From sequence record PZ386946.1: a stretch of DNA of 44,504 bases. One strand, written 5' to 3'. The DNA comes from a phage. The notes beneath the pieces are model-generated. The model worked only from the letters and a program-made list of their open reading frames with translations. It was not told where the DNA came from and did not search any database. Both the position numbers and the translations under genes were made by a program. Of this stretch, positions 40,656-41,270 are shown piece by piece (the stretch's first letter is position 1; the number at the start of each line of letters is the position of its first letter).

Positions 40656-41270
40656 ATGGCTAAAATCATCATTCTCAACGGTCCGGCTTCTGTTGGCAAA
40701 GACACTATCGGTAACGCGCTTGCTAAAGATTACAATTGCATCCCGACGAGCTTTAAGATTCCTATGTTTGAGATCGCAGAGTCAATCCTTGGCGCTCGGG
40801 CGTTCAGCAAATTCATCACCGCTTATGATGACCGAGATCAGAAAGAGATGCCTCATGATTTTCTCGGTGGGAAAACCTGCCGTGAGTTCATGATCTGGAT
40901 TAGCGAGTCGGTGGTCAAGCCGCTATTTGGCAATCAGCAGTTCGGTAAGCTGACGAGCGAGCGCATCCAGCTTTGTGACGAGGGATTTAGCTTTGTTTGC
41001 ACTGATGGCGGTTTTCCTGATGAGGTTATCCGTCTGGTGGAAGACGGTCACTATGTTACTGTTATGCGCCTATTTATGGATGGCAAGACCTTCGCAGGAG
41101 ATAGTCGTGATTATATCCGCATCAAGGAATCGCATTTCCCTGATTATAGGCAATATAACGAGCATGATGTGCATCTTGTGAATGGTGATATTGACGGCGG
41201 CGTCATGGAAGTGGCTCGCGCCTGCGGTATCCGTCCTGCAATCTACGAGTGGGCCGATATTCCCTGGTAA
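40656..41270 (+). CDS. P-loop nucleotide kinase (dNMP kinase-like), paralog 2
   Basis: 204 aa; Walker A LNGPASVGKDT; colinear similarity with 33145..33699 product (REFMIWISESV identical block). Confidence 0.65.
   Translation: MAKIIILNGPASVGKDTIGNALAKDYNCIPTSFKIPMFEIAESILGARAFSKFITAYDDRDQKEMPHDFLGGKTCREFMIWISESVVKPLFGNQQFGKLTSERIQLCDEGFSFVCTDGGFPDEVIRLVEDGHYVTVMRLFMDGKTFAGDSRDYIRIKESHFPDYRQYNEHDVHLVNGDIDGGVMEVARACGIRPAIYEWADIPW

What the first reader, a model, noticed from the sequence alone, without database searches (positions are those of the whole stretch)
40656..41270. Second, divergent copy of the P-loop (dNMP-kinase-like) kinase
The 40656..41270 product is colinear with the 33145..33699 product: matching Walker A (LNGPAGVGKDT versus LNGPASVGKDT) and an identical internal block REFMIWISESV. 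The two have diverged elsewhere. Both genes end at a copy of the bipartite motif. Two paralogous kinases in a genome of about 44 kb suggest distinct substrate specificities, for example canonical versus modified nucleotides or RNA versus DNA ends, or a recent cassette duplication.
Basis: seen in the sequence. Interest (0 to 1): 0.55.

Follow-up and report, generated by a model that had tools for sequence, protein, structure and literature searches.

The report
Second nucleotide kinase, acquired as cassette
This T1-like coliphage really does carry two intact, deeply diverged copies of a T4-gp1-like nucleotide kinase, because it holds both of two alternative repeat-bounded kinase cassettes that related phages carry one at a time; this is ordinary phage mosaicism, except that copy 2 ends in a conserved tail resembling the protein-docking tip of SSB.

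Summary
ORFs 40656..41270 (K2, 204 aa) and 33145..33699 (K1, 184 aa) are 46% identical (E 3e-48). Both keep every family-invariant residue, give confident kinase models and are under purifying selection, so neither is a pseudo-enzyme.

In related Braunvirinae the kinase sits in one of two slots: after the repair exonuclease, usually with an HAD phosphatase, or in the early region. At most 2 of 888 strongly matching phage records could hold two copies. Only this window and one metagenomic contig showed both.

Both cassettes are indels bounded by the known Drexlerviridae 21-nt intergenic repeat.

The copies differ in context. K1 is paired with the phosphatase. K2 stands alone behind its own repeat unit and ends in a disordered acidic tail, ...DIPW. 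That tip is conserved in its clade and resembles the phage SSB's ...DDIPF.

Substrates remain untested.

The parts
40656..41270 (+). K2: second kinase gene, 204 aa, T4-gp1-like nucleotide kinase (phrog_139)
40680..40706 (+). K2 Walker A / P-loop, GPASVGKDT (residues 9-17)
   Evidence: Invariant G14 K15 D16 T17 in alignments A1 and A2. The GKDT signature is shared with T4 gp1.
41223..41267 (+). K2 disordered C-terminal tail (residues 190-204) ending in the tip DIPW (41256..41267)
   Evidence: pLDDT falls to 70 and then 51, below 50 at residues 198-202. 85 of 131 close homologs end in [ILT][PT]W. Tip entropy is 0-0.1 against 1.3-2.2 for the linker, and the tail codons vary synonymously. Only the SSB and K2 among 273 window ORFs end in [IL]P[FW].
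40458..40475 (+). Upstream copy of the 21-nt direct repeat (ATAGCACTAATTGTTAAA, 2 mismatches); left boundary of the K2 cassette
   Evidence: The single repeat in phage FP (FP 1698..1721) aligns to both this copy and the copy at 41271.
40496..40501 (+). CATAAT, a -10-like hexamer 20 nt downstream of the repeat; putative K2 cassette promoter element
   Evidence: Read from the sequence. It has the same spacing as TATAGT in the other repeat units. This is inference; the standard sigma-70 scan does not call it.
40532..40663 (+). Small conserved ORF (43 aa, phrog_12148) overlapping the K2 start codon; part of the cassette leader
   Evidence: phrog_12148 E 4.5e-29. It is annotated in JeanPiccard as bas02_0066. 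The same leader precedes an unrelated gene in L024.
41271..41288 (+). Downstream copy of the direct repeat (exact); right boundary of the K2 cassette and the upstream element of the next gene's promoter-like unit
41286..41305 (+). Terminator-like hairpin in the repeat-to-TATAGT spacer, followed by TATAGT at 41309..41314
   Evidence: for the hairpin; for the sequence.
33145..33699 (+). K1: first kinase gene, 184 aa, same family, no C-terminal tail
   Evidence: phrog_139 E 9.2e-40. AF2 pLDDT 91.1, ending in a helix. dN/dS 0.15-0.31.
32669..33142 (+). HAD phosphatase (PNKP phosphatase-domain family), the operon partner of K1
   Evidence: PF25109 E 1e-17. phrog_415 E 1.4e-49. HAD-kinase fusion proteins P0152 and P0157 exist.
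32595..32612 (+). Degenerate repeat copy (ATAGCACCTTTTGTTAAT) at the left boundary of the HAD+K1 cassette
   Evidence: Sequence comparison with JeanPiccard. Relative to JeanPiccard, window 32608..33721 is replaced by about 26 bp.
33683..33700 (+). Exact repeat copy overlapping the K1 stop codon (encodes ...NSTNC*); right boundary of the HAD+K1 cassette
22712..23134 (+). Phage SSB, ending ...QFNDDIPF; the comparator for the K2 tail
   Evidence: phrog_44 'single strand DNA binding protein' E 1.5e-24. Translation. Annotated as SSB in relatives.

Best explanation
Shown: the gene at 40656..41270 is an intact second member of the T4-gp1-like nucleotide-kinase family. It is not a recent duplicate of 33145..33699. 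The two are old, diverged lineages of one accessory kinase module. In Braunvirinae (T1-like phages) this module occupies one of two alternative slots: slot A, between the repair exonuclease and the lysis genes, or slot B, in the early region downstream of the DUF7174 gene. Each slot is bounded by the family's 21-nt direct repeat and its promoter-like unit. Inferred: this genome acquired both modules through recombination between those repeat units. Inferred from homology only: both enzymes probably phosphorylate (deoxy)nucleoside monophosphates, feeding phage DNA synthesis from degraded host DNA. Shown: the copies differ in context. K1 is co-transcribed with, and evolutionarily coupled to, an HAD phosphatase. 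K2 stands alone behind its own repeat unit in the early region and carries a disordered acidic tail ending in DIPW. Hypothesis: that tail acts as a docking peptide like the SSB C-terminal tip, placing the kinase at replication or recombination complexes.
Against: No curated Pfam or NCBIfam model, and no PDB sequence, reaches significance, so the dNMP-kinase label rests on a remote-homology PHROG plus fold ranking (TM 0.61). Substrate and activity are untested. Recombination at the repeats is inferred from indel boundaries, not observed. The left boundary of the HAD+K1 cassette is only a degenerate repeat, and the exonuclease gene next to it is itself mosaic. The repeat units are not called as sigma-70 promoters by the standard scan, because the TTGCTA-to-TATAGT spacing is 22 nt. 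The tail ends in Trp, not the Phe of every characterised SSB tip, and no binding partner is known. The K2 ortholog in phage DTL carries an in-frame stop, which suggests the gene is dispensable.
Confidence: 0.65

Rival explanations
1. Recent duplication within this genome, followed by divergence towards different substrates such as canonical versus modified nucleotides.
For: There are two colinear paralogs in a 44.5 kb genome. The K2 clade has fixed non-conservative changes in the LID-like segment (R141M, H140F, Y144K) and an 8-residue insertion.
Against: dS is saturated and third-position identity is 0.35. Each copy has orthologs 93% identical in other phages that lack the other copy. GC content differs. 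Nothing seen in the window points to a DNA-modification pathway, though the window was not searched systematically for one.
Confidence: 0.1
2. The kinases are 5'-OH polynucleotide kinases. Together with the HAD 3'-phosphatase they would form a split Pnkp-type end-healing enzyme for RNA or DNA repair, for example against host anticodon nucleases. K2 would be a spare kinase subunit.
For: The HAD partner belongs to the PNKP phosphatase-domain family (PF25109 E 1e-17; phrog_415 'polynucleotide kinase'). The gene pair is conserved and co-varies. HAD-kinase fusions exist. The pair lies next to a repair exonuclease.
Confidence: 0.2
3. K2 here is a functionally redundant passenger, a transient by-product of mosaic recombination with no distinct role that will eventually be lost.
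For: Two-copy genomes are very rare: at most 2 of 888 records. Most relatives manage with one copy in either slot. The DTL ortholog is interrupted by a stop codon. In L024 the same slot carries an unrelated gene.
Against: Both copies are intact and under purifying selection, including in the window-versus-L003 comparison of the two two-copy genomes (dN/dS 0.27 and 0.31). The arrangement was recovered independently in a metagenome. K2 has clade-specific conserved features that K1 lacks, namely the tail and the LID changes.
Confidence: 0.3

Closest known systems
Bacteriophage T4 gp1 deoxynucleoside monophosphate kinase (PDB 1DEK)
   Different: Only 12-14% identity. There is no significant direct sequence or profile match beyond the P-loop. 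T4 gp1 is longer, at 241 aa. Substrate range is untested here. T4 gp1 has no HAD partner and no IPW tail.
Annotated 'dNMP kinase / P-loop NTPase / ATP-binding protein' genes of Drexlerviridae, such as JeanPiccard bas02_0067 and TLS Gp14
   Same: K2 is 93% identical to JeanPiccard bas02_0067 and lies at the same early-region position. The PNK plus dNMP-kinase pair downstream of the repair exonuclease has been described for Drexlerviridae (PMC13164509). TLS has both genes in its early region (PMC11447400).
   Different: Those genomes carry one kinase. This one carries both lineages. None of these proteins has been characterised biochemically as far as the searched literature shows.
PeSL promoter/stem-loop cassettes of T4-type phages (Arbiol et al. 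2010, PMC2839356; PMC4122927)
   Same: Short repeated regulatory units lie between accessory genes, and insertions, deletions and replacements between close relatives are bounded by those units.
   Different: The repeat here is the Drexlerviridae 21-nt direct repeat, whose function is unknown according to PMC11447400. Its spacing to the -10-like hexamer, 22 nt from TTGCTA, does not fit a standard sigma-70 promoter. Only some spacers form hairpins. No mini-circles or promoter activity were tested.
T4 polynucleotide kinase/phosphatase (Pnkp)
   Same: It combines a P-loop kinase with an HAD (DxDxT) phosphatase. The window's HAD matches the PNKP phosphatase-domain family. Fused HAD-kinase relatives exist.
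   Different: The domain order is reversed, with HAD first. The kinase fold is closer to dNMP kinase than to polynucleotide kinases. K2 has no phosphatase partner.
Bacterial SSB C-terminal tip, DDDIPF (SSB-Ct)
   Same: The K2 tail sits at the extreme C-terminus, follows a disordered linker, has acidic residues, and ends in [I/L]-P-aromatic. The phage's own SSB ends in DDIPF (the SSB-Ct definition is from PMC5872125).
   Different: The terminal residue is Trp, not Phe. The carrier is an enzyme, not an OB-fold protein. No binding was tested, and no such tail was found in the searched literature.

Membership tests
T4 gp1-like dNMP kinase family (phrog_139) | Significant match to the family profile that also contains T4 gp1 | tested here: met
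   K2 6.7e-40 and K1 9.2e-40; T4 gp1 1.8e-65 against the same profile region.
T4 gp1-like dNMP kinase family (phrog_139) | P-loop with the G-x4-G-K-D-T signature | tested here: met
   GPASVGKDT and GPAGVGKDT. It aligns with T4 gp1 GVKRSGKDT.
T4 gp1-like dNMP kinase family (phrog_139) | Fold closest to the solved T4 enzyme | tested here: met
T4 gp1-like dNMP kinase family (phrog_139) | Curated sequence model (Pfam or NCBIfam) or direct PDB sequence match | tested here: not met
   Only sub-threshold P-loop hits were found. There was no PDB sequence hit with the single sequence or the profile.
T4 gp1-like dNMP kinase family (phrog_139) | ATP-dependent phosphorylation of dNMPs to dNDPs | not testable with these tools
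   This needs an enzyme assay.
Split Pnkp-type polynucleotide kinase/phosphatase | HAD (DxDxT) 3'-phosphatase domain fused to, or encoded next to, the kinase | tested here: inconclusive
   Met for K1: PF25109 E 1e-17, the gene ends 2 nt before the K1 start, and the DIDGT motif is present. Not met for K2, which has no HAD within its cassette.
Split Pnkp-type polynucleotide kinase/phosphatase | Kinase domain structurally closest to polynucleotide 5'-kinases | tested here: not met
Split Pnkp-type polynucleotide kinase/phosphatase | Associated RNA or DNA ligase completing a repair pathway | not tested
   The window was not systematically scanned for a ligase.
Drexlerviridae 21-nt intergenic direct repeat (TLS/T1/Rtp) | [quoted passage not shown] | tested here: met
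   12 copies with up to 3 mismatches against 0.03 expected; orientation follows the genes; each copy lies about 70-85 nt upstream of an ATG. The consensus is from PMC11447400.
PeSL-like mobile regulatory cassette | Gene indels between close relatives are bounded by the repeated unit | tested here: met
   Seen in window versus FP and window versus JeanPiccard. JeanPiccard also has an extra repeat-bounded 508-bp segment.
PeSL-like mobile regulatory cassette | The unit acts as a strong promoter plus terminator, and recombination produces mini-circles | not testable with these tools
   Only a consensus scan was possible. It found one terminator-like hairpin at 41286..41305 and no canonical sigma-70 call.
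SSB-Ct-type docking tail | Extreme C-terminal acidic peptide ending in [I/L]-P-aromatic after a disordered linker | tested here: met
   The tail is ...EWADIPW here and DDIPW, DGLPW or DEIPW in relatives. pLDDT is below 50 at 198-202, and the tip is far more conserved than the linker. The terminal residue is W, not F.
SSB-Ct-type docking tail | Binds the SSB-Ct pocket of SSB-interacting proteins | not testable with these tools
   This needs binding assays or complex modelling.

The most novel reading that the evidence does not exclude
K2-type kinases of T1-like phages use a conserved SSB-tip-like C-terminal peptide ([DE]-D-[IL]-P-W) to dock onto the same partners that recognise the host or phage SSB tail (...DDIPF). 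That would place nucleotide phosphorylation physically at the replication or recombination machinery: a minimal, single-peptide form of the dNTP channelling proposed for the T4 dNTP synthetase complex. Alternatively, the tail could compete with SSB for those partners. On this reading the two kinases in this genome are not redundant. One would be an early, replisome-tethered enzyme. The other would be a phosphatase-coupled enzyme.
Probability: 0.25. Interest if true: 0.65.

Novelty: new member of a known kind. Interest (0 to 1): 0.35.

Why it matters
On the main reading, little is new. The result documents how an accessory nucleotide-metabolism module moves between two slots in T1-like genomes. 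It also gives the unexplained 21-nt Drexlerviridae repeat a concrete, observable role as a cassette boundary; the TLS authors list that repeat's function as an open question. The two-copy genome is a natural test case for whether the HAD-coupled and solo kinases are interchangeable. If the tail hypothesis holds, it would give a simple, genetically tractable example of an enzyme of nucleotide supply being recruited through the SSB interaction hub. It would also warn that SSB-tip-like peptides on non-SSB proteins are being overlooked in phage annotation.

Tried and rejected
- Direct sequence searches of K2, and of a 49-sequence profile, against PDB sequences gave nothing significant, not even T4 gp1. 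hhalign against T4 gp1 aligned only the P-loop, at 18.8% probability.
- Pfam and NCBIfam gave only sub-threshold P-loop hits. PADLOC gave nothing for either kinase.
- Exact-sequence look-ups of the window's K2, K1 and HAD found no record, so the source genome is not in that collection.
- IMG/VR scans returned only 9 loci and no extra two-copy genome.
- The second homolog search, run with an alignment, added little diversity among its listed hits.
- I suspected that a 109-aa ORF in the K2 slot of L024 was a K2 remnant. It is unrelated.
- I considered that conservation of the IPW codons might be a DNA-level extension of the adjacent repeat. I rejected this because the codons vary synonymously and the sequences upstream of other repeat copies are unrelated.
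- I considered reading TTGCTA inside the repeat as a -35 hexamer. The 22-nt spacing to TATAGT argues against a standard sigma-70 promoter, and the scan does not call it.
- Literature searches for an SSB-like tail on phage kinases, and for 'DDIPW', found nothing relevant.
- The records in the phage collection that hold two places could not be identified individually with the available output.

Full report
**1. The observation**

The window has ORFs at 40656..41270 (K2, 204 aa) and 33145..33699 (K1, 184 aa). BLASTP aligns them colinearly at 46% identity, E 3e-48. The quoted Walker A strings and the shared block REFMIWISESV are present.

Both genes end at ATAGCACGAATTGCTAAA. The copy at 33683..33700 overlaps K1's last codons and stop. 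The copy at 41271..41288 begins right after K2's stop. This motif is not a property of the kinases. It occurs 12 times in the window against 0.03 expected by chance, always in the direction of local transcription.

**2. The genome**

The window is a T1-like coliphage of Drexlerviridae, subfamily Braunvirinae. Its nearest relatives are JeanPiccard, JulesPiccard, vB_EcoS_FP and others, at about 87% nucleotide identity, and none covers more than 80% of the query.

**3. What the proteins are**

- Both kinases match phrog_139 'deoxynucleoside monophosphate kinase' at about 1e-40.
- The experimentally characterised T4 gp1 matches the same profile region at 1.8e-65 and shares the unusual GKDT P-loop.
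- An AlphaFold model of K2 is confident (pLDDT 90.8, pTM 0.83).
- K1 models equally well, with the same order of secondary-structure elements (pLDDT 91.1).
- Curated models and PDB sequence searches are silent, so the family label rests on remote homology plus fold.
- The family is large, with 3741 representative clusters at E of 1e-3 or better.

**4. Neither copy is a pseudo-enzyme**

Both keep every invariant column of 12-, 49- and 42-sequence alignments: the P-loop, SFKxPMF, REFMIWISE, DGGF..E, the RL arginine, GDSRxYI and the E..D pair. dN/dS against the nearest orthologs is 0.08-0.27 for K2, 0.15-0.31 for K1 and 0.13-0.16 for the HAD.

**5. Not a recent duplication**

- Between K1 and K2, third-codon-position identity is 0.35, the Nei-Gojobori dS is saturated, and GC content is 48.9% versus 42.6%.
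- K2 has orthologs of 77-93% identity in JeanPiccard, PH1062, ESCO41, AugustePiccard, the BEK phages and DTL.
- K1 has orthologs of 70-93.5% identity in FP, ACG-M12, SU57, Msk and TR1-3.
- The two sets do not overlap, and every listed record has a single matching place.

**6. A movable module with two slots**

I examined genomic contexts from GenBank records and metagenomic contigs.

| Configuration | Genomes |
|---|---|
| Slot A only (between the repair exonuclease and the DUF7244/holin genes), HAD plus K1-type | FP, L011, L024 (stands for more than 20 contigs), L030 |
| Slot A only, a different HAD plus K2-type | L021, L022 |
| Slot B only (early region downstream of DUF7174), K2-type alone | JeanPiccard, DTL, L017, L018, L019 |
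| Slot B only, second HAD type plus K2-type | L015, L016, ESCO41 |
| Both slots | the window and Logan contig L003 |

- The HAD that accompanies K2-type kinases is only about 40% identical to the one that accompanies K1, so phosphatase and kinase co-vary as pairs.
- Fused HAD-kinase proteins exist.
- In the phage collection, 888 strongly matching records hold 890 places, so at most two could be two-copy genomes.
- The literature already notes PNK and dNMP kinase after the exonuclease in some Drexlerviridae (PMC13164509) and in the early region of TLS (PMC11447400).

**7. Cassette boundaries**

Relative to FP, window 40476..41264 is an insertion, and FP's single repeat copy aligns to both flanking window copies. 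Relative to JeanPiccard, window 32608..33721 (HAD plus K1) is replaced by about 26 bp, between a degenerate repeat at 32595..32612 and the exact one at 33683. JeanPiccard in turn has an extra 508-bp segment between two repeat copies.

Each repeat is followed by a spacer of about 20 nt, often a hairpin such as 41286..41305. After the spacer come a TATAGT-like hexamer, a CATCGAAACGA leader, a ribosome-binding site and an ATG.

This is the 21-nt direct repeat aaATAGCACnnnTTGnTAAAA described for TLS, T1, Rtp and Rogue1, whose function the authors list as an open question. The behaviour parallels the PeSL cassettes of T4-type phages (PMC2839356). Recombination at the repeats is my inference from the boundaries.

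In L024 the same K2-type leader and small ORF precede an unrelated 109-aa gene, which shows that the slot takes exchangeable cargo.

**8. How the two copies differ**

- K1 has the HAD partner and no tail. Its last residues, NSTNC, are encoded by the repeat itself.
- K2 is solo. It follows its own 2-mismatch repeat and a small conserved ORF (phrog_12148) and lies in the early region.
- The K2 clade has fixed changes in the LID-like segment, RLFMDGK against RLHR[DE]G[YF] in all other clades, plus an 8-residue insertion.
- K2 ends in a disordered tail (pLDDT below 50 at residues 198-202) with the tip DIPW.
- 85 of 131 close homologs end in [ILT][PT]W. Only two of 150 distant representatives do, both with the tip EDDIPW behind unrelated linkers.
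- Tip entropy is 0-0.1 against 1.3-2.2 for the linker, and the tail codons vary synonymously, so selection acts on the peptide and not on the DNA.
- The phage SSB (phrog_44, 1.5e-24) ends in QFNDDIPF. This is the canonical SSB-Ct tip, DDDIPF in E. coli (PMC5872125).
- SSB and K2 are the only two of 273 window ORFs ending in [IL]P[FW].
- I found no report of such a tail.

**9. Mechanism**

Shown: paralogy, integrity of both copies, old divergence, alternative slots, repeat-bounded indels, and a conserved disordered tail.

Inferred from homology and from background knowledge that T1 and TLS degrade host DNA and reuse its nucleotides (stated in PMC11447400): both enzymes convert (d)NMPs to diphosphates to feed replication.

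Hypothesis: the tail docks K2 on SSB-interacting proteins.

The main rival for the biochemistry is a split Pnkp-type end-healing enzyme. HAD coupling and the fusion proteins favour it. The fold ranking, and the many genomes that carry the kinase with no HAD, count against it.

K2 may also be merely redundant here. The DTL ortholog carries an in-frame stop and two-copy genomes are rare. Against that, both copies remain constrained, including between the two two-copy genomes.

**10. Verdict**

This is a real feature, correctly spotted, and mostly ordinary: a known kinase family whose two lineages were combined by the mosaic, repeat-bounded cassette exchange typical of phages. 'Distinct specificities' remains open. 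The SSB-tip-like tail is the one new lead that seems worth an experiment.

Noticed in passing
window 39916..40461 (+) versus 35581..37164 (-): The 181-aa ORF just upstream of the K2 cassette (phrog_7327) is an internally deleted paralog of the DUF3987 helicase. It keeps the N-terminal 42 residues (74% identical) and the C-terminal 63 residues (54% identical) but lacks the whole ATPase core. It is conserved in FP and JeanPiccard. It could be a regulator or a decoy that uses the helicase's interaction ends.
   Followed up: partly
window 40532..40663 (+); L024 17880..17980: A small 43-aa ORF (phrog_12148, E 4.5e-29) overlaps the K2 start codon. The same promoter, leader and small ORF precede an unrelated 109-aa gene in K1-type genomes, so this leader is a conserved entry point for exchangeable cargo.
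   Followed up: partly
window 1563, 20108(-), 21949, 25788, 29821, 30107, 33683, 37656(-), 40458, 41271, 42095, 43008, plus a degenerate copy at 32595: The 21-nt Drexlerviridae direct repeat contains the palindrome TAGCA-N5-TGCTA. If transcription starts just after the TATAGT hexamer, the palindrome is centred about 42 nt upstream of the start. That is the position of a class-II-activator-type site and does not fit a -35 hexamer, because the TTGCTA-to-TATAGT spacing is 22 nt. The repeat's function is unknown in the literature.
   Followed up: partly
window 33685..33699, 37657..37671 (-), 40460..40474; proteins P0077 and P0084: Several unrelated genes terminate inside the repeat and so share the C-terminal peptide ...NSTNC. 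This is a by-product of repeat-bounded recombination placing the stop codon within the repeat.
   Followed up: no
L007 (phage DTL, MG050172) 10001..10603: The K2 ortholog of phage DTL has an in-frame stop (GGK*CREF), and DTL has no other kinase copy. Either the kinase is dispensable in the laboratory or this is a sequencing error.
   Followed up: no
window 41067..41088 (K2 residues 138-144): The K2 clade has RLFMDGK where K1 and all other clades have RLHR[DE]G[YF]. An arginine that is 100% conserved elsewhere is Met in K2-type enzymes, in the LID-like loop, which could affect catalysis or specificity.
   Followed up: partly
window 31465..32595: The repair exonuclease is 96.5% identical to JeanPiccard's but only 63% to FP's and L003's, while the adjacent HAD+K1 is FP-type (90-93%). 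The exonuclease gene itself is mosaic: its middle segment, 31597..31969, has no nucleotide match to FP.
   Followed up: partly
window 43593..43670 (+): A tRNA-Arg gene (anticodon TCT) lies in the early region, as in JeanPiccard and related phages.
   Followed up: yes
window 32669..33142 versus 33145..33699 versus 40656..41270: GC content differs sharply between neighbouring cassette genes: HAD 36.5%, K1 42.6%, K2 48.9%, whole window 44.4%. This is consistent with separate origins.
   Followed up: no
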